In this document: in pieces, positions 12,440 to 51,825 of the stretch
How positions within the stretch are numbered: position 1 is the stretch's first letter
Layout of the letters: every line of letters begins with the position of its first letter
Source of the DNA: a virus
Virus record (IMG/VR): IMGVR_UViG_3300036715_002842
Location: 1-64,000 of that record
Strand: one strand, 5' to 3'
DNA: 64,000 nt
Notes under the pieces: generated by a model
Databases searched by the model: none
What the model was told of the DNA's origin: nothing
What the model saw: only the letters and a program-made list of their open reading frames with translations
Position numbers and translations under genes: made by a program

Positions 12440-12793
12440 TTAGGTGGCCTTGTGGACATACACCTTTAAACCCCGCTTAGTTGCGATCTCTACCATACCC
12501 CTGGTACCTTTGGACCGACCGTTCCAGATCGCAATAAGGGCATCCGCCTTCGCGGCCATTTCTGCGTTTCGAACCATTCCAGCTTCAGGGTGAAAGACTC
12601 CGTCAATCGTCCACTTGGCAGGATATTCTTCCCAGGGAATCCCGTTGATCTTTGCGAACTCAATTGCGTCCAGGTCAATCCCCTTCGCCTTACCGGAGAG
12701 GATTACTGAAATCTCAAAGCCGGACTGTTCAACCGCTTCGCATACTAGTTGGATGTCGCAGATATCCCGACCGCCGGCAATGATAGTTCTCAT
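12440..12793 (-). CDS. SLOG-family (YspA/DUF2493-like) protein
   Basis: IIAGGRD, SGKAKGID, AGMVRNAEM, WNGRSKGT. Confidence 0.8.
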   Translation of the reverse strand: MRTIIAGGRDICDIQLVCEAVEQSGFEISVILSGKAKGIDLDAIEFAKINGIPWEEYPAKWTIDGVFHPEAGMVRNAEMAAKADALIAIWNGRSKGTRGMVEIATKRGLKVYVHKAT

Positions 12794-12808
12794 GGAATTT
12801 AAACCTGT

Positions 12809-13582
12809 CTAGAAACCAACCATCGCTGAAAGGAGCTTCGGAAGATCAAACCGCACTCCAGCGGTGTATCTCAGCTCAATCGGTCCAACACTCTGCAGGT
12901 TTCGATTGTATGAGAAGTCAAAGAACACACTATTGCCATCCGTAACGGGGTAAAGGTGGTATCTGGCTCTCCCCACAATTCGTGCTGGTTCGGCGTAAAA
13001 CTTGTCGTGCCCTGCAGAAAGTTCGAGTTGGATGATGTTGTGTCGACCTTCATCGAGTGGCACTACGTAGTGATAGCCGACACGGTAGGATCCAGAACGG
13101 TCTCTATTGCCCACGTTGTCGTTCTTGATATAGTCGAACAGTCGAACATCGAGAAAAGGGCCGGCGGCTTTAATAGACTTGTTGACACGATTGGTATCGA
13201 AGGACCAACCCAGAGTCAAGGTTCCACAAGTTCGAGAGGCGGTTTTGATCCCAGAACTATCAAATCCGGTTGAAGGAGATGGTGGATCTGTTAGAGTTCC
13301 ACCTGTTTGGGGAAGGGTCTCAAAGCCAACGCTAACATTTACGTAGTAAAAGCCGGTGAGAGTCTTTCTGATGGGGGACTGAATTGGCTTTTGGATGAGA
13401 AAGAGGTTGAAGACTGTAGAGGTGTAATTCGATTGGAACACTCCGGCAGAATTAGGTGCGTTGTTGATGTTGGTATTTACTCGGGCCACATCAACCGTAG
13501 CAGTCACTGGACTTGACTTGGGTCCCTGGGAGATGTCTTGTGGCTCTTCCATTGCAAGGACTAGCAACGCAGCAAGTAGCAT
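12809..13582 (-). CDS. putative exported beta-rich (outer-membrane-like) protein
   Basis: Hydrophobic N-terminus, alternating amphipathic strands, C-terminal Phe. Confidence 0.5.
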   Translation of the reverse strand: MLLAALLVLAMEEPQDISQGPKSSPVTATVDVARVNTNINNAPNSAGVFQSNYTSTVFNLFLIQKPIQSPIRKTLTGFYYVNVSVGFETLPQTGGTLTDPPSPSTGFDSSGIKTASRTCGTLTLGWSFDTNRVNKSIKAAGPFLDVRLFDYIKNDNVGNRDRSGSYRVGYHYVVPLDEGRHNIIQLELSAGHDKFYAEPARIVGRARYHLYPVTDGNSVFFDFSYNRNLQSVGPIELRYTAGVRFDLPKLLSAMVGF

Positions 13583-31453: not shown

Positions 31454-31520
31454 GTAGAACTCCCCTTTGGTTTAATTCTACAGGAGAAGTTCTACGTTGA
31501 TTCTTTTACCGATTAACATG

Positions 31521-31546
31521 AAAAAAGGGGTCCCGAAGGACCCCTT
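31521..31546 (-). terminator. intrinsic terminator closing the tRNA operon
   Basis: On minus strand AAGGGGTCC-TTCG-GGACCCCTTTTTT. Confidence 0.85.
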
Positions 31547-31630
31547 GATCGACTGATCTTCCCCACCATGCCAGAACTGAATCTGGTCATATCGATTAGG
31601 GTGGTTTCTGTCACTGCCAGCGACAGTTAC

Positions 31631-31768
31631 TTACTTGCTACGGTGCGCCTTCACGCGGTTGGGGCTCTTGTAAGCGCCAGTACGAGTCCGGAGATTACGG
31701 TCCTTCACGCGAAGGTTGTTGCGGTTGATACGGTCGAAACGTTCGACCTTGAGTCTGGCCTTGGCCAT
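31631..31768 (-). CDS. small highly basic protein (45 aa)
   Basis: AGGAGG RBS; MAKARLKVERFDRINRNNLRVKDRNLRTRTGAYKSPNRVKAHRSK*. Confidence 0.65.
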   Translation of the reverse strand: MAKARLKVERFDRINRNNLRVKDRNLRTRTGAYKSPNRVKAHRSK

Positions 31769-31839
31769 GTGAACCTCCTAGATAGCATCACTAGCTATCT
31801 GAATGGCTCACCCCTCCGCTGCTGTAGTTGTAGTGCATA

Positions 31840-32028
31840 TCATTCTCCTAAGAGTTGTTTCCGTCTGGCAAACGCACGTTCAAGTGCTGGTGCCATCGGT
31901 GGTGGGTTCTGGAGTGCTTCAGCGAAGCACATCTGATCTTGTGCAGTCATGTGGATCGTTTCAACAGTTTCAGAGAAACCTTTGAGCGGATCGTTTGGAA
32001 CGGGTATGTAGTTTACCTCGTTTGTCAT
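31840..32028 (-). CDS. DUF1778 (TacA/AtaR-type) antitoxin C-terminal-like peptide
   Basis: GAGG RBS; ETIHMTAQDQMCFAEALQNPPPMAPALERAFARR resembles the DUF1778 C-terminal consensus. Confidence 0.65.
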   Translation of the reverse strand: MTNEVNYIPVPNDPLKGFSETVETIHMTAQDQMCFAEALQNPPPMAPALERAFARRKQLLGE

Positions 32029-32051
32029 AGCATTTACCTCGGTTCTGGAAA

Positions 32052-32126
32052 TGGTGCCCCCGGTGGGGTTCGAACCCACGACCTGAAGATTATGAGCCAT
32101 CTGCTCTGCCGCTGAGCTACAGGGGT
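32052..32126 (-). tRNA. tRNA-Ile2/Met (CAT)
   Basis: Cloverleaf, loop CTCATAA, CCA end; A1:C72 mismatch. Confidence 0.85.
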
Positions 32127-32168
32127 ATTGGTATATTGGTTTGACTTGAGGAAAGATGGATTTCGGAA

Positions 32169-32252
32169 TGGTACCCCTTCTCGGACTCGAACCGAGACGC
32201 TCGAAAGCATAGGACCTAAACCTATTGACTGGACCAATTCGTCTAAAGGGGC
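32169..32252 (-). tRNA. tRNA-Leu (TAG)
   Basis: ATAGG-TTTAGGT-CCTAT, long V arm, CCA. Confidence 0.9.
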
Positions 32253-32515
32253 ATTTGATCTTCTGTCCTTACTATTGTGGAACCCGCAACCGGGTTTGAA
32301 CCTTACCACACGCGGATATCAGTTCCGCCACGCTCGCATTGGTTGATGAATTAGGCGGATTCACCACTGGTCGGTTTTCCCTCCCCATTAAGACCAGTGC
32401 GCACCAGCCTTAACTACGGTCGACCTTTACGGTTCTCTGGGGCTAAGCCACTTGAATCCGATAGGTGGTACCCGTTCTCGGAAATGACTTAACGATACGA
32501 AGAGCCGTCAAGAAT

Positions 32516-32591
32516 TGGAGCCCACAACCGGGTTCGAACCGATGACCTCCTGATTACAAAGCAGGTGCTCTACCAACTGAGCTATGCAGGC
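32516..32591 (-). tRNA. tRNA-Thr (TGT)
   Basis: Loop TTTGTAA, GGTTCGAACCC T arm, CCA. Confidence 0.85.
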
Positions 32592-32610
32592 AAAGGTGTC
32601 GGACTGAAAC

Positions 32611-33048
32611 TTGAAGGGCCATCCGACTGCCACTCAAAGGTGGGTGCATATATCGCTAGGCCGAAGGTATTTTGGATGCGGTAGATCTAAGAGATCCGAA
32701 GTCCTTGACAGTTTTGGAAAGAAGGTTCTTCTTGACTCGACTTACGAATTGGAGGTTTCGGAACTTTTGAATCAGCTTGGAATTCGTTGGATTAGACCCA
32801 AACCATTGAGTTGGTATTTGGAGGGCAAGCAGCACCTATACCACCCAGATTTCTTTTTAACGGATTTCAATCTCTATCTGGATCCGAAGAACGACTATCT
32901 AGCTCGAATTGATGTAGGGAAAATTTCCCTAGTAAGTTGGCAGAACGCAGTTGTAATTCGAATTCTAACCAAGAAGCAAATTACACTTGAGTATCTGAAA
33001 GGATTGGTAGCCCCGGAGAATTTTGAAATCTCGACCTACCGCGTGTAA
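32611..33048 (+). CDS. PD-(D/E)XK / TnsA-like free-standing endonuclease (possibly truncated)
   Basis: DSTYE...YHPDFFL...YLDPKND; antisense to the tRNA cluster. Confidence 0.65.
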   Translation: MKGHPTATQRWVHISLGRRYFGCGRSKRSEVLDSFGKKVLLDSTYELEVSELLNQLGIRWIRPKPLSWYLEGKQHLYHPDFFLTDFNLYLDPKNDYLARIDVGKISLVSWQNAVVIRILTKKQITLEYLKGLVAPENFEISTYRV

Positions 33049-33079
33049 GGCGATTGCTCTACCTCTGAGCTACAGGGCT
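33005..33079 (-). tRNA. tRNA-Val (TAC)
   Basis: ATCGC-CTTACAC-GCGGT, CCA. Confidence 0.85.
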
Positions 33080-33735
33080 AAGGTCGGGGATTCTTCAGCG
33101 GCGCCACCTAGGAGATCCCCTACAATTGCCGCCTGCTGGGGACTAGCATTGCTGCCCCACCCTCACCACCAGGTCTACCGAGTTAGGGCCTGATCCTGGA
33201 TTAAGATCCGGCCCCCTTGACCGGTGCGCACAACTGATCTTGTTCGGGGAACTGGAGTCCCGGCCGGATGACAACTCCAACTCCCCTTCAACCACCGCCC
33301 TCGAGGGGTAACAGTGAACCGAAGTCCACAGTGGTCGATCTAGTTCGGGGACCCACCACCCGCGTGGTTGCAGGTCCCCTTCGGACGCCTGACGGCCAGT
33401 CCGATCTTTAAGATATTCGGGAGTTCACGCCTCACTCCCTAGCGTCCAAGACTTTGCGGCGAAGTGACAATCCTAAGATCGTCTCCGAAGTTGCAGAGCA
33501 TCTTCGTGTAGCGCGTGGATCCTTTTGTAACTTTGACAGTTTCCAACAACCTTTAGAGGGAAGTCTTTCACTATCCTGGAGATTGCGGGAGTAGGTGCTG
33601 TGTCGGGCACCACGACCTTCAGAAGCAAGAAGAGGCTTGAATGACCGTCCAAGTATCTCTCCACCCTCACACGCGGTAGGCGTGGGGCTCGTCCTTCTGT
33701 TCCAGACCGGTTTCTGGCTGTGTACCGGTAAATGC

Positions 33736-33810
33736 TGGTGGACCTGGAGGGAATTGAACCCCCGACATCTGCCTTGCAAAGGCAGCGTTCTCCCGCTGAA
33801 CTACAGGCCC
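33736..33810 (-). tRNA. tRNA-Ala (TGC)
   Basis: CTGCC-TTTGCAA-GGCAG, G3:U70, CCA. Confidence 0.92.
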
Positions 33811-33846
33811 GTGCTGTCAAACAACTTAATCTTTAACCTACTTTGT

Positions 33847-33921
33847 TGGTACTCCCAGTTGGAATCGAACCAACGTCTAGAGCTTAGAAGGCTCTTGCTA
33901 AATCCCCTCAGCTATGGGAGC
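33847..33921 (-). tRNA. tRNA-Arg (TCT)
   Basis: AGAGC-CTTCTAA-GCTCT, CCA. Confidence 0.92.
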
Positions 33922-33924
33922 GAA

Positions 33925-34007
33925 TGGAGGCCCGGTGGAGAGTCGAACTCCTAACCTTTCGGACGAGGGTTGCAATCTCGCGCCAGTCCACACCAGCTTC
34001 CCGAGCC
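33925..34007 (-). tRNA. tRNA-Cys (GCA), atypical D and V arms
   Basis: Loop TTGCAAC, U73, CCA; extra CC-GAAA-GG variable hairpin. Confidence 0.75.
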
Positions 34008-34025
34008 TAGGTCTTGCATCTTGAA

Positions 34026-34102
34026 TGGTAGCCCAGGTGGGAGTCGAACCCACAGAACCCAGATTTTGAATCTGGTACCTATACCAATTCGGTTACTGAG
34101 CC
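34026..34102 (-). tRNA. tRNA-Leu (CAA), short variable loop
   Basis: CCAGA-TTCAAAA-TCTGG, A73, CCA. Confidence 0.88.
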
Positions 34103-34295
34103 ATTGAGTACGTGGCGGACCCTTTCATAGTTTCCACCCTTTGGAGTCAATCCAACTTGTAGTAGGATTTGACGAATGTTTTTGCAAGTTTTAGACGCTT
34201 CTGAAATTTGCTCATCTGTTACTTTTGTCTTGCAGTTGATGTTTCTTCCTCGGTACGTTTCAGTTTGGCTATGACAGTTTGGACATAGAAGAGAA
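34103..34295 (-). pseudogene. HNH endonuclease remnant
   Basis: Start-less frame LLCPNCHSQTETYRGRN...IRQILLQVGLTPKGGNY. Confidence 0.65.
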
Positions 34296-34305
34296 TTTTA
34301 AGGAT

Positions 34306-34587
34306 TGGTGCGCCCGGCCGGAATCGAACCGGCACGCTCTTACGAACAACAGATTTTCATCCTACTTCATGTTGCCATGACCGTTTCCGTTGTAGGCTGG
34401 ACTATCCCTTGACCTTATCCGAGGACTTAGGCCCCCACCGTCTAGTCTCTACACCTTCCTATTTCTAGGCTTGGCTCGGGATTGTCCTAAGGAGTTTCCC
34501 CGAATTTGATGGGATTCACGCTGGAGGTTTCCGACCCAGGTGCTCAAATCATAAGTCTGTGGCGTCTACCAGTTCCGCCACGGGCGC
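34306..34587 (-). tRNA. tRNA-Leu (TAA) interrupted by group I intron
   Basis: Exons 34587-34553 and 34357-34306 splice to ACAGA-CTTAAAA-TCTGT with long V arm and CCA. Confidence 0.9.
34358..34552 (-). ncRNA. self-splicing group I intron (195 nt), trnL(UAA) type
   Basis: Inserted at U^AA; conserved core AAATTCGGGGAA, AATCCCGAGC, GTAGAGACTAGACGG, GATAGTCC; ends in G. Confidence 0.88.
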
Positions 34588-34716
34588 AAAAGTTAGGGCT
34601 CGCTACGACACTTCCCACCTATCGATGGATCAACATGCCACCGGGTCTTACGGCCACACCTAACACAACCTCCGATTTACCCAAGATAATCGGTTTAAAA
34701 TACTGCTTGGGGCAGT

Positions 34717-34804
34717 TGGAGCGGGAGATGGGACTTGAACCCACGATGGACTTTCGTCACGTCAGCTTGGAAGGCTGATGCCTTAACCACTAGGCTACAC
34801 CCGC
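34717..34804 (-). tRNA. tRNA-Gly (TCC) with long variable arm
   Basis: GCG...CGC-U73-CCA acceptor; TCAGC-CTTCCAA-GCTGA; variable region CGTGACGAAAGTCCATC. Confidence 0.85.
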
Positions 34805-34939
34805 TTTGGAGAAACCTGGAAAATTTCATCCAGATTTCAAGGTAGAAGGAAAATTTGTGGCAACGTGATGACATTCGCTACTACGTATCCCCAAGCCTAA
34901 CACTCTAGGTAGCTTGGTTTATGTCAAGAGGACTTTTAT

Positions 34940-35308
34940 TGGTGGAGGTGGGGGAAATCGAATCCCCGTCCGAAAAGCTTCAGAAGGTAATTCATTCACA
35001 GGCTTAGTTCGAATCTAGTGACCTCTGTGGAGGATCGAACAACTCCAATCGAGGACTTGTTCCTTTGTCTCAACTGGAAGCCAGGAACACTCTTCCAATC
35101 CAGTTTATCTCTTCACCTCAGCAGGACGAATCCACCCTCGGATCTGATGCAACTAGGCTACTAAACGATCACCTAGAGGTTGCTGCTTACGCAGCCTGGA
35201 GAAAACGATCGTTTTCGGCAGTTGTGTTTGTTGGGCTTTTTAGGAGGCCAGCCCACCTCCGCCTGCACTACACTCCGGATTAGCCATCCGTCGAAACCTG
35301 GCACCCCC
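34940..35308 (-). ncRNA. ssrA: tmRNA, tag (A)AENDRFLQAA
   Basis: GGGGGTG...TTCGAC 5' end, G3:U acceptor, GGGGATTCGATTTCCCCCACCTCCACCA 3' end; resume codon after ACAACT. Confidence 0.92.
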
Positions 35309-35441
35309 AAGAGTTGGATTGGCTTGTAGGACCAATCCTGAGAGATCGTTACATTTGGTTTGCACCTACTAACGATTCACACCTTAGCACCGGTTCACCT
35401 TCCACCGAAAGGTTCCCCAAGTTGCTTAGACCTGGGAATTG

Positions 35442-35512
35442 TAGGTCCAGAGGGTATCGAACCCTCTTCCTCGCCTTAAAAGGGCGATGCTTCACCTTAA
35501 AGCTTTGGACCC
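35442..35512 (-). tRNA. tRNA-Lys (TTT), CCA not encoded
   Basis: TCGCC-CTTTTAA-GGCGA; GAGGG-TTCGATA-CCCTC. Confidence 0.85.
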
Positions 35513-35605
35513 GTTTGATGGGGATAGGAGGCAATGACCCATTCGGAGCCGCCTACCGTTAACCCATGCTGGACCCCACGGTCAGACCAGCATGCCCAAG
35601 ATTCA

Positions 35606-35679
35606 GACCAAAGAGTGGGTTCGAACCACTGTCCTCCCCAGACGTGCTGGGCGCTCTGACCGGCTGAGCTACCTTGGTC
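35606..35679 (-). ncRNA. tRNA-like element with 5-nt anticodon loop
   Basis: Canonical D arm (TAGCTCAGCCGGTCAGAGC) and T arm (AGTGG-TTCGAAC-CCACT), but CCCAG-CACGT-CTGGG and no CCA. Confidence 0.6.
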
Positions 35680-35730
35680 CTTTCCAGCTAGTGCACTAGC
35701 GTCAACAAGCCCGGATGTGGGTCTAGAACT

Positions 35731-35938
35731 CCACGGGGCTTGCAGGGAACTGATTGGTGGTAGCCCGATCCTCTGCTACTGAGCAAGTTGACCGGCACCT
35801 CATCGGGATGACGACCAACTGGCACCGAAGTGCACCACGGGGCTTGCAGGGAACTGATTGGTGGTAGCCCGATCCTCTGCTACTGAGCAAGTTGACCGGC
35901 ACCTCATCGGGATGACGACCAACTGGCACCGAAGTGCA
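35731..35938. repeat. perfect 104-bp tandem duplication
   Basis: 35731-35834 identical to 35835-35938. Confidence 0.92.
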
Positions 35939-35946
35939 CCAAAGAA

Positions 35947-36084
35947 CTACTTCACTCCCTCCTTTCTCCGGAGCAGCTCGAACTTCGCTGCCGCGGCCAG
36001 AAGGGATCCTGACTGAACCACCGCCTGCAACTGCGAGACGGTCATCCTACGCACGCTCTCTGCGTGCTTGCTTGATTGTGCCAT
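35947..36084 (-). CDS. small hypothetical protein (45 aa)
   Basis: AAGGAGG RBS; MAQSSKHAESVRRMTVSQLQAVVQSGSLLAAAAKFELLRRKEGVK*. Confidence 0.55.
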   Translation of the reverse strand: MAQSSKHAESVRRMTVSQLQAVVQSGSLLAAAAKFELLRRKEGVK

Positions 36085-36524
36085 GGGGCACCTCCTTCCA
36101 ACAAGTTGTTGGAAGGTCTTACGTGTCTGCGTACCTCATCGTTGCTCCTTTTGGAAAAGTGGAAGGATCGGGTTCGGTGTTATTTCACCCTCCAGGTCGT
36201 GTAACGTCCTAGGGAAGTCCCACCCGATTTCTTGAAGATATTTGGTTGGGGATTGGTGGCCACCGCACCCCAACCTACCTGTCGGTCCTATTGCCGTGGA
36301 TCGTTCATTCCCAACCTCCACGAGGAGTAGGTCCTTTTCGTCCCTGTTGGCAGCGACCGGTCTGTGCCGGGCTCACCGCTAGTTCTGTGGAGTCAGGGCT
36401 CCAGACATCCCGAGGGGAATTTGCACGGGACGATCTTGTGTTACAGAAAGGTACGAGTAGGAGTTCGCAAAGCTCCATTCTCCACTCATTGCGGAGATCC
36501 TGCACTTGGAGGTGATACTCGTAA

Positions 36525-36601
36525 TGGTCGGCTATGAGTGATTCGAACACTCGACCTTCGCGACCCAAACGCGACGCGCTACCAGGCTGCGCTAATAGCC
36601 G
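36525..36601 (-). tRNA. tRNA-Pro (TGG)
   Basis: CGG...CCGA-CCA; TCGCG-TTTGGGT-CGCGA. Confidence 0.92.
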
Positions 36602-36798
36602 GGAGGACTCGGTTTTAGTGGAGTTGACTGGAACCCGACCCCGAGTCACCCAGTTGCGCTGCTCCGCTGGGATGCCGGAGGTATTCACCGCTTTCGCGGG
36701 GCGCTGGAGGTCCCCTCAGTCAGTGGGAACCGGGGTCTAACACCTGATGCGCTTTTCGCTCTTGGGCCGCTTTTCATGACCGTTCAGGCAGTTACCTT

Positions 36799-36872
36799 TG
36801 GTTAGGGTGGTAGGATTCGAACCTACGAGGGGAGCGTCAAAGACTCCTGGTTTACCGCTAGCCTACACCCCA
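36799..36872 (-). tRNA. tRNA-Gln (TTG)
   Basis: U1:A72; GGAGT-CTTTGAC-GCTCC; CCA. Confidence 0.88.
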
Positions 36873-36999
36873 ATGGTTGGTGACTTTAGGAAAGCCACCA
36901 GAACCCTCAAAGGATGCCCTGAAGCATCGTTTGGATGGTAAATGCATTATTCGGTTGTCAGAGATCTGTTACTTGACCGAAGTCAAACTCAACTCATAA

Positions 37000-37028
37000 A
37001 GGATAGGGTTGAGGGTAAAAATTGTCAA
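37000..37028 (-). promoter_or_regulatory. promoter of the tRNA/tmRNA operon
   Basis: TTGACA-17 nt-TATCCT. Confidence 0.7.
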
Positions 37029-46897: not shown

Positions 46898-47251
46898 AAG
46901 ATTTCTCTACCCCCTCTGGGCTATTTGCCCGGATAATTGAGTCCAAGATCCATCAAGGATGACTCGATGCTGGTCACCACCTTAGGCACTTTCAGAAACC
47001 CGTGTAAAATAACGGAGATTCGAGGTACCACGGGTCAAATGGTGGTTGGTATTCTATCCGTTAAGAGTATTACTTTCTACCATTTGAGGAAAGTTCTAAA
47101 GGGCAATTTTCTGGGTGACTTTGCATTTTCAAAGTTCCTCAAAAAATTGAGCCTTGATTTTTCTTCGAGACCCGGTAAATTAGTAGTATATGTTCCCCAG
47201 AGGCCCCGGCTCCCCCACCTTCTCTACTGCCCCACTTTCTAGAGGTGCTTA

Positions 47252-48343
47252 ATGCGCTTGCTGATGTTCCGGTCTCAACTCACACCTCAGGGGATAACAT
47301 TCGTACCTCGTGAGGGTGAGCCGGCGCGATATAGCATCTTCCAGGACATCCACGACTACATCAAGATGAGCACTGAGAGTCTTCTCCATCCTCAGGCGGC
47401 GGTCGATCTGGTCATGGACAGCATCGCTCTACGTATCCTGCACCTGCCTCAGGCTCCGGACCACAAGGAGATCTACAGCAGTCAGTGCACCATCCGTAAG
47501 ACCAATGCGGATACCGGGAACGAGTGGTATGAGAAGACCCGGGACTTCAAAAACAAGTTTATGTATTGCATCAACTTCAACCGTATATCTCGTGCAGCGG
47601 AAGAAGCGATTGACAATCCGAAGAAGACCCTCATCTCTATTGCCAGCTTCTGGGATGTTTCCGAATACGAACTGGAACAGATTCTGAACTGGTATTACGA
47701 AACCGGACAGCAGCTCTACGGTGCCAAGGACCAGCGCCCTGAGTGGTGGGGGCAGCGCATTGATGAGGTTGCCCGCTACAAGGCTCTGGAATTTGAGTTC
47801 GTCAAGCAGGTGAACAAGAAACTGGCTACCCCGGCCTTCAGCTACCTCGTGGACTTCTACGAGTCCAGAGAATCCATCGTCCAGGACTTGATGCGAGAAG
47901 CCTGGCGCGCAGTTCTGGATACTTCCCACAAGCCGGAGCTTGATACCCTTCGCATGGGTAAGACCTACATCAATACGGTCATCCATCACGTGGCCCAGAG
48001 CTACACCAAGCACCATGGGAAGCAGGCTTACAACAAGCAGAACGATACTTACGAGACCATCGAGTTCTCTCTTCTGAGTGAACCGGACATGGATGAGTCC
48101 AAGCACTTCTTCCTGGCCCACGAGGTAAGTGAGTATCACGAAATGGAAGTCTTCCATACCCTCGACAAGGTTCTGGCTGACAATGAGATGACCCTGGTGC
48201 GGGTCCTCACTGGTGATCTGGAGAGTCCGGAATTCGAGAGTTACGCCTCGGGAATGTCCAGTCGTAGGATTGCGGCCTTCACCTTCTTCAAGGTGGACGC
48301 TGAGAACCTGCGGGACAAGTTCGGATACCTGTTCCACAGCTAA
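47252..48343 (+). CDS. hypothetical protein, possibly divergent sigma-factor-like
   Basis: ESIVQDLMREAWRAV...KTYINTVI resembles sigma region 2; weak. Confidence 0.4.
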   Translation: MRLLMFRSQLTPQGITFVPREGEPARYSIFQDIHDYIKMSTESLLHPQAAVDLVMDSIALRILHLPQAPDHKEIYSSQCTIRKTNADTGNEWYEKTRDFKNKFMYCINFNRISRAAEEAIDNPKKTLISIASFWDVSEYELEQILNWYYETGQQLYGAKDQRPEWWGQRIDEVARYKALEFEFVKQVNKKLATPAFSYLVDFYESRESIVQDLMREAWRAVLDTSHKPELDTLRMGKTYINTVIHHVAQSYTKHHGKQAYNKQNDTYETIEFSLLSEPDMDESKHFFLAHEVSEYHEMEVFHTLDKVLADNEMTLVRVLTGDLESPEFESYASGMSSRRIAAFTFFKVDAENLRDKFGYLFHS

Positions 48344-48769: not shown

Positions 48770-48826
48770 AGTTACTCGAAGGAGCGCTCTACCCCGTTAA
48801 TCTCGGCAGCAATCACCGTTTGGCCT

Positions 48827-49105
48827 CTAACTAGCGAGCGGCAGCTTTTCAATTTCTGCCATGAATGAAGGTGGGGTTGTGAAAGCTGCCGCTCGAGGTA
48901 TCTTAAAGTACGGATCGGTAAATCCGATGGCACCTTCAGAGATGGCATCCTTAATAAGGAACCGTGGAGTGTCCAGGATGACCAGAGTTTCGTTCTTCCA
49001 CTCTTCCGGATACTCTAGAACGAACTGAGCAATAGCGTGCCCAGCTTGAGACATCTTTTGTCCGAAAGAAAGTTTTTCGTCGATCAGAATGTAGAGCTTA
49101 GTCAT
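48827..49105 (-). CDS. PTH2-like peptidyl-tRNA hydrolase
   Basis: KLYILID..LS.GQKMSQAGHA...W...LVIL, resembling the PTH2 N-terminal motif. Confidence 0.7.
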   Translation of the reverse strand: MTKLYILIDEKLSFGQKMSQAGHAIAQFVLEYPEEWKNETLVILDTPRFLIKDAISEGAIGFTDPYFKIPRAAAFTTPPSFMAEIEKLPLAS

Positions 49106-49409
49106 CGCTTTCCTCGTCTTCATCGTTCTTCTTGATGAGATAGGGTTTGAGAGGGTCCATATAAATGACCCCATCCTTCTTGAACGCTTCCTCGATTGCA
49201 GACATGGGAAACTTGAAAGTGTAATAGTTGTCGTTACAACTGTAAGAACAACGGCAAGGATTCACTTCCCGAATATTCGCGATAAGATGGTCACCCTCCA
49301 TTCGAAATCCCTGCAACCTAAAGTTGCTGAAGAGCTTGGAGTGATAGAAGGCGTCCTTGAGCTTCTGTTCAAACTTCTTCGTGGCTTGAAGGGTTTCGGT
49401 GTAAGACAT
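49098..49409 (-). CDS. hypothetical protein
   Basis: GGAG RBS before MSYTETLQ. Confidence 0.65.
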   Translation of the reverse strand: MSYTETLQATKKFEQKLKDAFYHSKLFSNFRLQGFRMEGDHLIANIREVNPCRCSYSCNDNYYTFKFPMSAIEEAFKKDGVIYMDPLKPYLIKKNDEDEESDD

Positions 49410-49499
49410 TGGAATTCTCCACAAGTTGTAAAAGTTGATTGACAAACCGGATATGCAGCTCCGTTAACATCCTCTTCAAAGGCTTGCTGTCTAACCTCT

Positions 49500-49673
49500 T
49501 CAGATTGTGGGATGGTAATCCTTTCCAGCAATCTTTACCCAGTTTGACATTCCAATCAAGAGGTGACCGTGCTGAGAAGGGGAGAAGGGGACTAGCCCCT
49601 TCCCATCACAGTGCAGACTTGGCTTAGACGATTCGAAGACCGTCCGGCAACCAAGACAGATCCACTCTTTCAT
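49500..49673 (-). CDS. small zinc-ribbon-like protein (57 aa)
   Basis: TGATG coupling; MKEWICLGCRTVFESSKPSLHCDG... Confidence 0.5.
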   Translation of the reverse strand: MKEWICLGCRTVFESSKPSLHCDGKGLVPFSPSQHGHLLIGMSNWVKIAGKDYHPTI

Positions 49674-50119
49674 CACTTCCCCTCTTGCATGTCGAGGAGG
49701 ATCTGCGTACTCAGACCCTGCTGGAAGTCCAGAGTCTCCTTACGGAAACGCTTCTTCTCTTCCCAAGCGGCGATGTCCTCAGCAATCATTTCCTTCCATT
49801 CCGCGAGCTGGCGCTGAGAATAGTGGTCGGCTTGCTTGTGGAAGTAAGAACGGCTGGGATTCCGGTTGGGCTCGATCTGCTCGAGGGTACGTCCACGGAG
49901 AAGGCAGTAAGCGATGTGCTTCGCTCTCCAATTCTGATCGTCGCAGCTGTAGAAGTTCTCGGGCTTGATTGCCAGGAGCTTGGCGCGAAGTTCTTCCTGT
50001 TGCTCCCCGGGAATGGAAGGCTTGAAGGTGGCATCGTAACGCCGTTCCCAATGCCTGCAAGCCACTTCGTGCTTGAGCTCTGCCTTGATGGTTGCGATCA
50101 GTTCTTTGTAAGTGGTCAT
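49673..50119 (-). CDS. hypothetical protein, first gene of the amber-gated operon
   Basis: 148 aa; RAKHIAYCLLRGRTLEQIE; RBS lies inside a hairpin. Confidence 0.75.
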   Translation of the reverse strand: MTTYKELIATIKAELKHEVACRHWERRYDATFKPSIPGEQQEELRAKLLAIKPENFYSCDDQNWRAKHIAYCLLRGRTLEQIEPNRNPSRSYFHKQADHYSQRQLAEWKEMIAEDIAAWEEKKRFRKETLDFQQGLSTQILLDMQEGK

Positions 50120-50121
50120 TA

Positions 50122-50173
50122 GATTCTCCGAAATTTGAAAAGTTTGAGAAAAGGTTTTCGAATTTGGAGAATC
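50122..50173 (-). promoter_or_regulatory. RBS-sequestering hairpin
   Basis: GATTCTCC-AAATT-CGAAAA pairs with TTTTCA-AATTT-C-GGAGAATC, burying the GGAG of the gene starting at 50119. Confidence 0.75.
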
Positions 50174-50198
50174 ACTAAGGTGGGCGGTTCTACGTCAT
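50172..50198 (-). promoter_or_regulatory. amber minigene 2 (M-T-UAG-N-R-P-P-UAG-UGA)
   Basis: AAGGAG-6 nt-ATG ACG TAG AAC CGC CCA CCT TAG TGA. Confidence 0.7.
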
Positions 50199-50209
50199 CG
50201 TAGGCTCCT

Positions 50210-50329
50210 TTACGAACAGAAAAAACCCAACAGAGGCTGCTGGGCAGCTGATCCGTTGGGGAGGAAGTGTTCTTGCGAACACAGATTTTTGTGGTGTGGC
50301 AAAACTTTGGAGCCGCGAATCTACTTCAT
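50210..50329 (-). promoter_or_regulatory. amber minigene 1 / leader ORF (M-K-UAG, then 36 open codons to TAA)
   Basis: GAGGG RBS, ATG AAG TAG; frame stays open through the terminator to TAA 50212-50210. Confidence 0.65.
50220..50260 (-). terminator. intrinsic terminator/attenuator in leader
   Basis: CCCAACGGA..GCTGC-CCA-GCAGC..TCTGTTGGG-TTTTTT. Confidence 0.8.
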
Positions 50330-50342
50330 GGTCTTGTCCCTC

Positions 50343-50380
50343 AAATGGTTGGTACTACCCAAAATGGTTGGTACTACCCA
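50343..50380. repeat. 19-bp direct tandem repeat in leader
   Basis: AAATGGTTGGTACTACCCA x2. Confidence 0.85.
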
Positions 50381-50387
50381 AAGACTA

Positions 50388-50416
50388 ATTATAACCCCGG
50401 ATCTTTCGTTTGCCAA
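50388..50416 (-). promoter_or_regulatory. sigma70-like promoter of the amber-gated operon
   Basis: TTGGCA-17 nt-TATAAT. Confidence 0.75.
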
Positions 50417-50480
50417 GGTTTGACGGAAAAATTATTTTACCCTTGGCTTCATGGTTACATATCAGTGACGATCTTGATGG

Positions 50481-51518
50481 TCATGGCTGACTCCCAGAAG
50501 TAAGGACGTTTCGTTCCATGGGCTGACCGTGCATCCAGTGTTTCACGGTCTGGACATGGGAGGCCCGGACGAACTTCCCAACCTTGACCCGAAACTCAGA
50601 GAAGGGGAATGCCTCGGCCACCCGGACCACATAGCCCTCCTGGCGATCCCATTTGCGCTTGTCCCACAAGGCGCGGATGGCCTTTTCGTCATAGATTCCG
50701 TCGTAGAGTACGGGAACAGGAGTAATCCCCAACAGGGCAAACCATTCCAGCGTCTCGTCCCAGGGGAGGCAGATGTTCCGGTCATCCCAGATGGAGAACC
50801 CAAGCAGGTAGCTGGGAAGGCCGTCGTAGCCGATGGAATGCTTGGCGTAGAGGTTTTCGCCGCACACTCGCCATCCTTCCGGGATGTCCATACGGATCTG
50901 GGACCAGAATTGCTTGACCCAGTTCCGGCTGGGGTGACTGCGCCCATCCAGGCTCCGAGCGTGGATGTGATCCTGGTAGAGGGACGTGTTTTCTCCGTCC
51001 ATTTTCTCGGTAACGATCACCCGCTTCCCTGCGAGGGCTGCGGTGGAATCCATCATTCGGTCGTCGTCGTTCATTCCCTCCGACCATGGCAGATGGTGGG
51101 TCCTGGGATACTTGACCCAGTGGGTGAATAGGCTAAGAACGCCGCCAATGGCGAGCACCTTCTGAACGCTCTCGTCATGGAACAACTCCCCCTTGAGGCG
51201 CTGGCCATTGGGGAGGATGGGATTCCCCCACTTGTCATAAGGCTGGTCCGCGTAGAGATGTGGTGGGAGCAAAGATTTGGTGATCCCGCAGGCGTTACGA
51301 ACATCCTCGGTGGAGATCTCTGTGGTTTCGCACCGCATGTGGTGATCGCCACAAACGGAAGCGCCGTTGTCGAGGTAGTAGCCTCCGTCCGGCCACAGTC
51401 TGCGTTCCAGGATGTGGTGGGCGTCCGCAGCAGGTTCCCCGCAGAAGACACAGCGGCCCTTGGCGCGAGCAAACACGGCCTCGCGGAAAGCGTCTCTGGT
51501 TAGCAGCAGGGCGTTCAT
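50481..51518 (-). CDS. HNH domain fused to RNA ligase
   Basis: N-terminal CVFC...DAHHI...C..HH; KYPRTHHL, VTEKMDGEN, CGENL, EGYVVR. Confidence 0.85.
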   Translation of the reverse strand: MNALLLTRDAFREAVFARAKGRCVFCGEPAADAHHILERRLWPDGGYYLDNGASVCGDHHMRCETTEISTEDVRNACGITKSLLPPHLYADQPYDKWGNPILPNGQRLKGELFHDESVQKVLAIGGVLSLFTHWVKYPRTHHLPWSEGMNDDDRMMDSTAALAGKRVIVTEKMDGENTSLYQDHIHARSLDGRSHPSRNWVKQFWSQIRMDIPEGWRVCGENLYAKHSIGYDGLPSYLLGFSIWDDRNICLPWDETLEWFALLGITPVPVLYDGIYDEKAIRALWDKRKWDRQEGYVVRVAEAFPFSEFRVKVGKFVRASHVQTVKHWMHGQPMERNVLTSGSQP

Positions 51519-51639
51519 TGGGTGGTTCCTTTCGAGTTGGATTCATTACATTTCAGACGCTACCGTATGGCGTACCTGTGGGTGTATCCCCTTGAATTCT
51601 GGCTCGTAGTGTTTCAAAGCGGTTTCACTCTTAAAAAAG

Positions 51640-51711
51640 TCCCCACGGTGGTAGTCGAAACCACGACACAGTGTTTTAGAAGCACCTGCTCTACCGTTGA
51701 GCTACGTGGGG
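51640..51711 (-). tRNA. amber suppressor tRNA (anticodon CTA)
   Basis: CCCCACG/CGTGGGG acceptor, TAGCTCAACGGTAGAGC D arm, GGTGC-TTCTAAA-ACACT, GTGGT-TTCGACT-ACCAC; CCA not encoded. Confidence 0.8.
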
Positions 51712-51730
51712 AAAGATCTGCTACCTAGAA

Positions 51731-51758
51731 AGAATAACCTTGAATTTTGAATTGTCAA
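51731..51758 (-). promoter_or_regulatory. promoter of the suppressor tRNA
   Basis: TTGACA-16 nt-TATTCT, 19 nt upstream of the tRNA. Confidence 0.65.
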
Positions 51759-51825
51759 TCCGAAATTATGAAAAAGCGACCAGTTCTCTGGTCGCTCTTA
51801 AGAACAGGAAGAAAAGTTAAATTAT

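What the first reader, a model, noticed from the sequence alone, without database searches (positions are those of the whole stretch)
50210..50329. Lock 1: Met-Lys-amber leader whose readthrough frame spans an intrinsic terminator
After ATG AAG TAG the frame stays open for 36 codons (IRGSKVLPHHKNLCSQEHFLPNGSAAQQPLLGFFCS) across the terminator stem and U-tract. It ends at a TAA overlapping the AAGGAG RBS of minigene 2. A ribosome stopping at UAG leaves the terminator free to form, while readthrough would antiterminate and deliver the ribosome to the next RBS.
Basis: partly seen in the sequence, partly recalled or inferred. Interest (0 to 1): 0.82.

Follow-up and report, generated by a model that had tools for sequence, protein, structure and literature searches.

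The report
Extra amber-stop leader spanning a terminator
A giant phage that carries its own UAG-reading tRNA has, in front of a small operon, a three-codon gene ending in UAG whose read-through frame runs across a strong transcription terminator; the UAG part is a duplicated copy of a widely conserved phage "is stop-codon read-through working?" switch, but whether this extra copy really controls the terminator is unproven.

Summary
ATG AAG TAG lies at 50329-50321, followed by 36 sense codons. They cross a strong intrinsic terminator (stem 50260-50226, -21 kcal/mol, T6) and end at a TAA overlapping the AAGGAG of minigene 2.

An open frame alone is weak evidence: all three frames are open here, and 34% of 108-nt windows in the contig have a given frame open.

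The head of Lock 1 is not chance. It matches the head of a leader I found in 9 other phage lineages upstream of relatives of the 148-aa gene. Each has a tRNA(CUA) nearby: UAG, then 4-7 codons ending Pro-Pro-stop, then a hairpin hiding the next gene's ribosome-binding site. In this window, minigene 2 is that canonical switch. This scan has reported the switch before on other DNA, and I found no publication describing it.

Lock 1 is a second, duplicated head fused to a terminator. None of the roughly 80 related loci has a terminator there. A sister strain keeps the arrangement, with a stronger terminator and a still-open frame.

- Read-through-dependent antitermination: about 0.4.
- Relic head plus an ordinary terminator: about 0.35.

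It is a lineage-specific possible transcriptional variant of a conserved translational switch.

The parts
51639..51711 (-). tRNA with anticodon CUA (amber suppressor). It has A36-A37-A38 and no encoded CCA.
   Evidence: ARAGORN. Rfam tRNA match, 57.7 bits. 77-82% identical over 50-61 nt to the tRNA(CUA) of L098 and L100.
51731..51758 (-). Sigma-70-like promoter of the tRNA (TTGACA-16-TATTCT)
   Evidence: 10/12 match. It is preceded by a terminator hairpin after the Volactin gene.
50481..51518 (-). HNH-RNA ligase gene. It is an insertion that is absent in a sister strain.
   Evidence: PF09414 at 3e-32 and phrog_24030. Contigs of 3 runs join 50431 to 51633, skipping 1201 nt.
50388..50416 (-). 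Leader promoter TTGGCA-17-TATAAT
   Evidence: 11/12 match. Both hexamers are unchanged in the sister strain; there is one change in the spacer.
50343..50379 (-). Two tandem 19-nt repeats of GGGTAGTACCAACCATTT, a strain-specific duplication
   Evidence: Unique in the contig. The sister strain lacks about 22 nt here, roughly one copy.
50321..50342 (-). Lock 1 head: SD-like GAGGGA (50342-50337), then ATG AAG TAG (50329-50321)
   Evidence: Homologous to the lysozyme C-terminal tail plus UAG of L098/L095/L097/L101. The SD-like site is unpaired in the nascent transcript.
50210..50320 (-). Read-through frame of Lock 1: 36 codons plus TAA
   Evidence: It is kept open to the same TAA in the sister strain, despite a -1 at 50286 and a +1 after 50225.
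50267..50282 (-). Hairpin GUGUUC-GCAA-GAACAC, a possible RNA polymerase pause hairpin (inferred)
   Evidence: Folds. The sister-strain change at 50283 adds an A-U pair.
50220..50261 (-). Intrinsic terminator: stem 50260-50226, T6 at 50225-50220
   Evidence: Energy is -21.3 kcal/mol here and -27.3 in the sister strain, where both changes add G-C pairs.
50172..50210 (-). Canonical gate (minigene 2): AAGGAG-N6-ATG ACG TAG AAC CGC CCA CCT TAG TGA
   Evidence: It has the same geometry as 9 other lineages (UAG at -69 to -86 and read-through stop at -48 to -59 from the gene start).
50122..50173 (-). Hairpin pairing GAUUCUCCAAAUU with AAUUU-CGGAGAAUC. It hides the SD (GGAG, 50129-50126) of the 148-aa gene.
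   Evidence: -15.2 kcal/mol, z = -5.3. An equivalent hairpin with a different sequence is present in all 9 compared leaders.
49673..50119 (-). 148-aa gene (P0001), unknown function, all-helical
   Evidence: No Pfam or PHROG match. AlphaFold pLDDT 91.5, no PDB match. Family alignment A3.
48827..49105 (-). 92-aa probable divergent PTH2-like protein (peptidyl-tRNA hydrolase 2 family)
   Evidence: No Pfam hit for this member itself. 5 of 9 family members match PF01981, best E 1.3e-4. tblastn 5e-7 to the L064 member. The Foldseek top hits are PTH2 structures but not significant.

Best explanation
Lock 1 is a duplicated head of a conserved phage leader that senses UAG read-through. Here it sits behind its own sigma-70-type promoter and is fused to a stop-free stretch that contains a strong intrinsic terminator.

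Proposed working (inferred, not shown):
1. Transcription starts near 50380.
2. A ribosome starts at AUG 50329.
3. Without charged tRNA(CUA), the ribosome is released at UAG, 60 nt before the terminator stem. The hairpin forms and the RNA ends near 50220.
4. With the phage's tRNA(CUA), the ribosome reads on behind RNA polymerase and occupies the 5' arm of the terminator as the U-tract is made, as in pyrBI-type attenuation. It stops at the UAA on SD2.
5. The canonical gate (minigene 2) then needs two more UAG read-throughs before the Pro-Pro-stop ribosome opens the hairpin over the 148-aa gene's ribosome-binding site.

Together this would make operon expression depend steeply on suppressor activity.
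For: - Anatomy confirmed: promoter, SD-like site, ATG AAG TAG, terminator inside the read-through frame, and stop 8 nt after the U-tract on SD2.
- No other promoter lies between the terminator and the operon, so some conditional read-through of the terminator is needed.
- The family theme is UAG sensing. 9 of 9 other lineages with a relative of the 148-aa gene have a UAG leader ending Pro-Pro-stop (L094 is an in-frame fusion instead), an SD-hiding hairpin and a tRNA(CUA).
- 67 of 72 PTH2-like loci have a tRNA(CUA), and 38 have a strict gate.
- Several relatives stack two UAG units in tandem, so extra UAGs appear to be favoured.
- Sister strain: the tRNA(CUA) abuts the leader. The terminator is strengthened by two added G-C pairs. 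No change disrupts any stem, SD, start or UAG. The read-through frame is still open to the same TAA.
- UAG is followed by A in both minigenes and in 8 of 10 family gates. From established knowledge of E. coli amber suppression, this context favours suppression.
- Synthetic precedent: UAG placed in a leader peptide converts suppression into transcriptional control (PMC6412442, section 6).
Against: - No related locus, of about 80 examined, has a terminator in the leader. The apparent hits lay inside lysozyme coding sequence.
- The Lock 1 head, including its SD-like GAGGGAC, is inherited from a lysozyme gene tail, so it may be a relic.
- All three frames are open, so the open frame is not specific to this frame, and the compensating indels of the sister strain were not needed to keep a frame open across the terminator.
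- The terminator hairpin begins 69 nt after the AUG. In E. coli a terminator 30 bp after a start codon lost only about 10% efficiency through translation, and the first ribosome catches RNA polymerase only after about 100-200 nt unless there is a pause site (PMC4824070). The pause hairpin here is only a guess.
- The SD is weak (GAGG at 9 nt).
- There are no RNA data, and the host is unknown.
Confidence: 0.4

Rival explanations
1. Relic plus ordinary terminator. Lock 1 is a non-functional leftover of a duplicated gate head (lysozyme tail plus UAG). The terminator is a constitutive or factor-dependent stop, for example ending the tRNA(CUA)/leader transcript, or overcome by a phage antiterminator or phage RNA polymerase. 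Only minigene 2 senses suppression.
For: - The head is homologous to lysozyme tails.
- The direct repeat ATGAAGTAGATTCGC / ATGACGTAGAACCGC, 131 nt apart, looks like a duplication.
- The locus is in flux: ligase insertion, repeat duplication and a replaced downstream segment.
- A terminator is unique to this lineage.
- The open frame is not frame-specific.
- Early terminators are little affected by translation (PMC4824070).
Against: - A near-consensus promoter making only a 160-nt RNA needs an explanation.
- The head keeps SD, ATG and TAG in both strains.
- The read-through stop falls just after the U-tract, on SD2.
- A stop-free stretch in all frames occurs in only 2.8% of windows.
Confidence: 0.35
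2. Translational relay only. Read-through from Lock 1 unfolds the terminator hairpin and the small hairpins around SD2/AUG2 on full-length mRNA. It delivers ribosomes to minigene 2 by termination-reinitiation, without affecting transcription.
For: - The UAA overlaps SD2.
- AUG2 sits in the loop of the hairpin CUACG-AUGA-CGUAG, and SD2 pairs weakly with GUUC.
- The canonical family mechanism is a ribosome stopping next to a structured start site.
Against: - The local hairpins are weak (4-5 bp).
- AAGGAG-N6-ATG is already a strong start site on its own.
Confidence: 0.08
3. The roughly 160-nt promoter-to-terminator unit is a stand-alone small RNA, and the minigene is incidental.
For: - Promoter plus terminator about 160 nt apart.
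- The fold is somewhat more stable than shuffled sequences, z = -2.3 to -2.5.
Against: - No Rfam match, even at E <= 10.
- No homologous RNA in about 80 related loci.
- It sits exactly where the family has its leader.
Confidence: 0.06
4. Lambda bar-like minigenes. The two-codon ORFs cause peptidyl-tRNA drop-off (fMet-Lys-tRNA, fMet-Thr-tRNA). This would be linked to the operon's PTH2-like hydrolase rather than to read-through.
For: - Two-codon ORFs with SD.
- A PTH2-like gene is in the operon.
- Knowledge of lambda bar minigenes and Pth.
Against: - Family leaders vary from 2 to 8 codons before the UAG, or use the stop of a full-length lysozyme gene.
- What is conserved is UAG plus Pro-Pro-stop plus hairpin plus tRNA(CUA).
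Confidence: 0.04

Closest known systems
pyrBI-type translation-coupled transcription attenuation (E. coli)
   Same: A leader ORF runs across an intrinsic terminator and ends just beyond it. A ribosome close behind RNA polymerase would prevent hairpin formation.
   Different: In pyrBI the signal is UTP-dependent polymerase pausing. Here the proposed signal is whether a UAG at codon 3 is decoded by a phage tRNA(CUA). No pause site is shown, and there is no experimental evidence.
Conserved phage amber-read-through leader (UAG ... Pro-Pro-stop, SD-hiding hairpin, gene X, PTH2-like gene, tRNA(CUA)). Reported repeatedly by this scan on other DNA; I found no publication.
   Same: The Lock 1 head (SD, ATG AAG TAG ATT CGC) is sequence-homologous to this leader's head. 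The operon and tRNA are the same. Minigene 2 of this window is a full member.
   Different: Lock 1 has 36 read-through codons with no Pro-Pro-stop. Its read-through covers a transcription terminator rather than ending at an anti-SD arm.
Synthetic unnatural-amino-acid transcriptional switch (UAG placed in the tna/trp leader peptide; reviewed in PMC6412442)
   Same: Amber suppression in a leader peptide is converted into control of downstream transcription.
   Different: It is engineered, Rho-dependent (rut site unmasking) and uses an orthogonal tRNA/synthetase pair. Here the element is natural and the terminator intrinsic.
RAPP/RGPP arrest peptides and ErmCL-type translational attenuation (PMC7897499, PMC10951233)
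   Same: This comparison applies to minigene 2 and the family: a short leader ending X-Pro-Pro, with the ribosome held next to a hairpin that hides the next SD.
   Different: It does not apply to Lock 1 itself, which has no such motif. The family motif is mostly K/R-P-P followed directly by a stop.
Stop-codon-recoded phages with suppressor tRNAs (code 15; bioRxiv 10.1101/2021.08.26.457843)
   Same: A phage-encoded tRNA(CUA) is proposed to time gene expression.
   Different: Here the genome keeps the standard code (21 of 88 ORFs end in TAG). The UAGs are in leaders, not inside protein-coding genes.
Lambda bar minigenes
   Same: Two-codon ORFs with SD in a phage leader, and a link to peptidyl-tRNA hydrolase.
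   Different: bar acts through drop-off toxicity in Pth-deficient hosts. Here the conserved features point to read-through.

Membership tests
Translation-coupled transcription attenuator (pyrBI type) | Promoter-proximal leader ORF with a usable start site | tested here: met
   Promoter with 11/12 match. GAGG lies 9 nt before the ATG and is unpaired in the nascent RNA. The SD is weak.
Translation-coupled transcription attenuator (pyrBI type) | Intrinsic terminator lies inside the leader ORF | tested here: met
   Met only in the read-through frame: the stem at 50260-50226 and T6 lie within codons 4-39, and the stop is at 50212.
Translation-coupled transcription attenuator (pyrBI type) | A pause site that lets the ribosome catch RNA polymerase in a short leader | tested here: inconclusive
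   A 6-bp GCAA hairpin at 50282-50267 is a candidate only. PMC4824070 shows why a pause is needed.
Translation-coupled transcription attenuator (pyrBI type) | Termination efficiency responds to leader translation | not testable with these tools
   No RNA run holds the stretch.
Conserved phage amber-read-through leader | UAG a few codons after a start, or at the end of an upstream ORF, with a tRNA(CUA) nearby on the same strand | tested here: met
   Family.
Conserved phage amber-read-through leader | Short read-through (4-9 codons) ending Pro-Pro-stop | tested here: not met
   Lock 1 reads 36 codons ending ...GFFCS-TAA. Minigene 2 meets this feature (N R P P TAG TGA).
Conserved phage amber-read-through leader | Read-through stop followed within about 7 nt by the anti-SD arm of a hairpin hiding the next gene's SD | tested here: not met
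   After the Lock 1 stop there are only weak 4-5 bp hairpins around SD2/AUG2. Minigene 2 and 8 other leaders meet this feature.
Riboswitch / T-box leader | Match to a curated RNA family | tested here: not met
   Rfam at E <= 10 gave only noise.
trp-type attenuator | Alternative antiterminator helix competing with the terminator's 5' arm | tested here: inconclusive
   None appears in the MFE or centroid folds. There was no comparative test.
PTH2 (PF01981), for the 92-aa gene | Profile match over the curated cut-off | tested here: inconclusive
   The window's own member has no hit. 5 of 9 family members hit below or near the cut-off, best E 1.3e-4. The gene at the same position in L041 is a true PTH2 at 3e-14.

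The most novel reading that the evidence does not exclude
A natural two-tier AND gate for amber suppression. One UAG controls an intrinsic terminator by ribosome-polymerase coupling. Two further UAGs control ribosome-binding-site unmasking. The operon (unknown 148-aa protein plus PTH2-like hydrolase) therefore switches on only when the phage's own tRNA(CUA) is highly active. This would be the first natural transcription attenuator whose input is a suppressor tRNA.
Probability: 0.35. Interest if true: 0.8.

Novelty: new variant of a known kind. Interest (0 to 1): 0.58.

Why it matters
Giant phages that use the standard genetic code often carry amber-suppressor tRNAs whose targets are unknown. 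The XacN1 authors, for example, could not find any (PMC5852040).

The conserved UAG leader next to these tRNAs gives them a natural target. If Lock 1 works as proposed, it would show that the same signal can also be wired to transcription termination. That would be a natural counterpart of a synthetic-biology device, and a compact part for suppression-dependent gene control.

If Lock 1 is a relic, it still documents how these leaders evolve: from the tail of a lysozyme gene, by duplication of the head.

Tried and rejected
- **Contigs of the closest relatives (P0002-P0008) could not be fetched.** The genome-contig scan gave only L095's contig again plus a 1.5-kb fragment.
- **No RNA holder was listed among sequencing runs.** So no 3'-end mapping was possible.
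- **No match in 50,697 GenBank phage records for the 148-aa family.**
- **54 loci around the RNA ligase** hold no relative of the 148-aa gene, except that L041's record does.
I folded each leader singly instead.
- **Exact search for the terminator sequence in IMG/VR gave no hits.**
- **Terminator-like hits upstream of gates in L112, L146 and L162** lie inside coding sequence.
- **Structure of the 148-aa protein:** a confident model but no PDB match.
- **Structure of the 92-aa protein:** a low-confidence model. PTH2 folds rank on top but are not significant. hhalign against L041's PTH2 gave nothing.
- **TAG recoding of the contig was rejected.**
- **A T-box or riboswitch was rejected.**
- **The tandem 19-mers as a conserved pair of operators was rejected:** the sister strain has about one copy.

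Full report
**What is there.** The window is the first 64 kb of a 105.6-kb virus contig. The contig comes from a giant phage related, by its RNA ligase, to Caulobacter phages CcrSC/CcrBL9 and many IMG/VR jumbo phages. All elements below lie on the minus strand, in this order:

- A sigma-70-like promoter, TTGGCA-17-TATAAT, at 50416-50388.
- Two tandem 19-nt repeats at 50379-50343.
- SD-like GAGGGA at 50342-50337.
- ATG AAG TAG at 50329-50321.
- 36 sense codons at 50320-50213.
- Within these codons, a 6-bp GCAA hairpin at 50282-50267.
- Also within them, a strong terminator: a 9+5 bp stem at 50260-50226 and T6 at 50225-50220, -21.3 kcal/mol.
- TAA at 50212-50210, overlapping AAGGAG at 50210-50205.
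- ATG ACG TAG AAC CGC CCA CCT TAG TGA at 50198-50172.
- A hairpin at 50173-50122 that pairs the GGAG of the 148-aa gene, which starts at 50119.

**Context.**
- A tRNA with anticodon CUA and its own promoter lies 1.3 kb upstream on the same strand.
- The contig is not TAG-recoded: 21 of 88 long ORFs end in TAG, and coding density is 86% under code 11.
- The gene between the tRNA and the leader is an HNH-RNA ligase.
- Downstream of the 148-aa gene (P0001, no family) come a 57-aa CxxC ORF, a 103-aa ORF and a 92-aa ORF.

**Chance.**
- The open frame alone means little. All three frames are stop-free across the region.
- The 108 nt hold no TA dinucleotide, and 79% of dinucleotide-preserving shuffles keep the frame open.
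- 34% of all 108-nt windows of the contig have a given frame open, and 2.8% have no stop triplet at all.
- The minigenes are a different matter. Of 35 ATG-NNN-TAG in the contig, five have an SD-like 4-mer. Two of those five are in this leader.

**Sister strain.** I laid contigs of four metagenome runs (sediment, microbial mat) on 48800-51800. They show a second, more abundant haplotype with these features:

- It lacks the ligase gene (joint 50431 to 51633), so the tRNA(CUA) directly abuts the leader promoter.
- It has about one copy of the 19-mer.
- It has seven substitutions and a few indels in the leader.

Reconstructed from the listed differences (one substitution was not listed, and the repeat region is approximate):
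- It keeps ATG AAG TAG and an open frame to the same TAA. A -1 at 50286 and a +1 after 50225 compensate each other, but the middle 20 codons are frameshifted, so the peptide is not conserved.
- Both changes in the terminator add G-C pairs, taking it to -27.3 kcal/mol.
- The change at 50283 adds a pair to the small hairpin.
- The three indels near gate 2 fall in the apical loop of the SD-hiding hairpin.
- No change disrupts a stem, SD, start or UAG.

Because every frame is open here, the compensation is only weak evidence for the proposed mechanism.

**The family.**
- L041, a 306-kb phage, has a distant relative of P0001 (blastp 1e-5; it is the only hit among 47 records). This is followed by a true PTH2 (PF01981, 3e-14) and a tRNA(CUA). 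Its leader reads AAGGAG-N8-ATG AAG AAG TAG ACT CGC GCC ACT CAG CCG CCC TAA.
- A pattern search for ATGAAG(N0-3)TAGAYTCGCG in IMG/VR gave 38 stretches. Three of them (L064, L083, L091) hold a P0001 relative, a relative of the 92-aa protein and a tRNA(CUA).
- A profile search found 10 loci with P0001 relatives. Every one has a tRNA(CUA) 0.3-1.2 kb downstream and a UAG 69-86 nt before the gene.
- In nine leaders (counting this window's gate 2 and L041, and leaving out L094), read-through of 4-7 codons ends Pro-Pro-stop 48-59 nt before the gene start. The peptides are IAKKPP, IADKPP, IREPP, MLKPP, ISKPP, VHKPP, IRPPP, TRATQPP and NRPP.
- L094 is an in-frame fusion instead.
- In all nine leaders, the SD of the gene pairs with an arm that starts 1-7 nt after that stop, and the stem sequences differ between lineages.
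- In four lineages the UAG is the stop codon of a phage lysozyme gene (PF00959) ending ...LED(D/E)IMK(K).
- A search with the small PTH2-like protein gave 72 loci. Of these, 67 have a tRNA(CUA) on the same strand, and 38 have a strict UAG...PP-stop gate at the expected distance. Several have two UAG units in tandem.
- Five of nine aligned members of the 92-aa family match PF01981 weakly.

This element is therefore real and conserved. Minigene 2 of this window is a typical member. The scan has reported the element many times on other DNA. My literature searches found no description of it.

**What Lock 1 is.**
- Its head aligns with the lysozyme tail plus gate of L098/L095/L097/L101: GGAC.A.A..ATGAA(G)...TAGAT is invariant, and it is 80% identical over 41 nt to L098.
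- Within the leader, ATGAAGTAGATTCGC and ATGACGTAGAACCGC form a direct repeat 131 nt apart.
- So Lock 1 is a duplicated or left-over gate head. Its canonical Pro-Pro-stop ending is replaced by a stop-free stretch carrying a terminator.
- None of the other roughly 80 loci has a terminator in its leader.
- The terminator sequence occurs nowhere else in IMG/VR.

**Mechanism and odds.** The promoter-leader-terminator-operon layout, with no second promoter, calls for conditional read-through of the terminator. The only evident control feature is the UAG minigene, in a system devoted to UAG sensing.

- A ribosome released at UAG is 60 nt from the stem. A read-through ribosome would traverse the stem and stop 8 nt past the U-tract, on SD2. 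This is the geometry of pyrBI attenuation and of the engineered UAG leader switch (PMC6412442).
- Against it: E. coli data show that terminators in the first 100 nt of an ORF escape ribosomal repression unless polymerase pauses (PMC4824070). Also, the element is lineage-specific, the head may be a relic, and the open frame is not frame-specific.

| Reading | Probability |
|---|---|
| Read-through-dependent antitermination | 0.40 |
| Relic head plus ordinary or factor-dependent terminator | 0.35 |
| Translational relay only | 0.08 |
| Stand-alone small RNA | 0.06 |
| bar-like minigenes | 0.04 |
| Other | remainder |

**Verdict.** The UAG-to-tRNA(CUA) link is strongly supported at family level. 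The terminator control is plausible but untested. I class it as a new variant of a known kind.

Noticed in passing
window 50432-51632 (-): The HNH-RNA ligase gene is a presence/absence polymorphism. In three metagenome runs a more abundant haplotype joins 50431 to 51633 and lacks the gene. This behaves like a mobile (homing-type) insertion between the tRNA(CUA) and the leader.
   Followed up: partly
window 49105-49580 and 49064-50022 (-): Other haplotypes replace or skip the segment holding the 57-aa CxxC and 103-aa ORFs (joints 49105 to 49580 and 49064 to 50022). The middle of the operon is variable, while the 148-aa and 92-aa genes are the conserved pair.
   Followed up: no
L095, L097, L098/L064, L101 (lysozyme 3' ends): Phage lysozyme genes end in a conserved ...L-E-D-(D/E)-I-M-K-(K)-UAG. 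The DNA (GGAGGAC GAx ATT ATG AAG) also reads as an SD plus ATG, so the last codons could double as an independently initiated Met-Lys-UAG minigene.
   Followed up: partly
L107, L111, L113, L137, L156, L165, L147: Several family leaders carry two UAG...Pro-Pro units in tandem, or two Met-Lys-UAG heads 20 nt apart. This suggests selection for a multiple-UAG (steeper) dependence on suppression.
   Followed up: partly
L115, L120: In some lineages the gene X relative and the PTH2-like protein are fused into one ORF of 200-207 aa. There the tRNA(CUA) sits immediately upstream of the gate, as in this window's sister strain.
   Followed up: no
window 31500-37000 (-): A tRNA array of 13 tRNAs, with a phage tmRNA (34940-35308; tag AENDRFLQAA) and a group I intron match (34377-34562). 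A tmRNA may matter in a phage that promotes stop-codon read-through.
   Followed up: no
window 46937-48343 (+) and 12440-13582 (-): Two gene pairs are joined in frame across a TAG stop (101 aa + 363 aa, and 257 aa + 117 aa). They could give read-through fusions when the suppressor is active, or they may be in frame by chance.
   Followed up: partly
window 51639-51711 (-): The tRNA(CUA) has C1-G72, A73, a short variable loop, a C-A mismatch closing the anticodon loop, and no encoded CCA, unlike most tRNAs of the array. Which amino acid it inserts is unclear.
   Followed up: partly
L104 (= contig of L095): One family member's 147-kb phage contig is binned in a Cytophagales MAG. This may be a host hint for that lineage only.
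   Followed up: no
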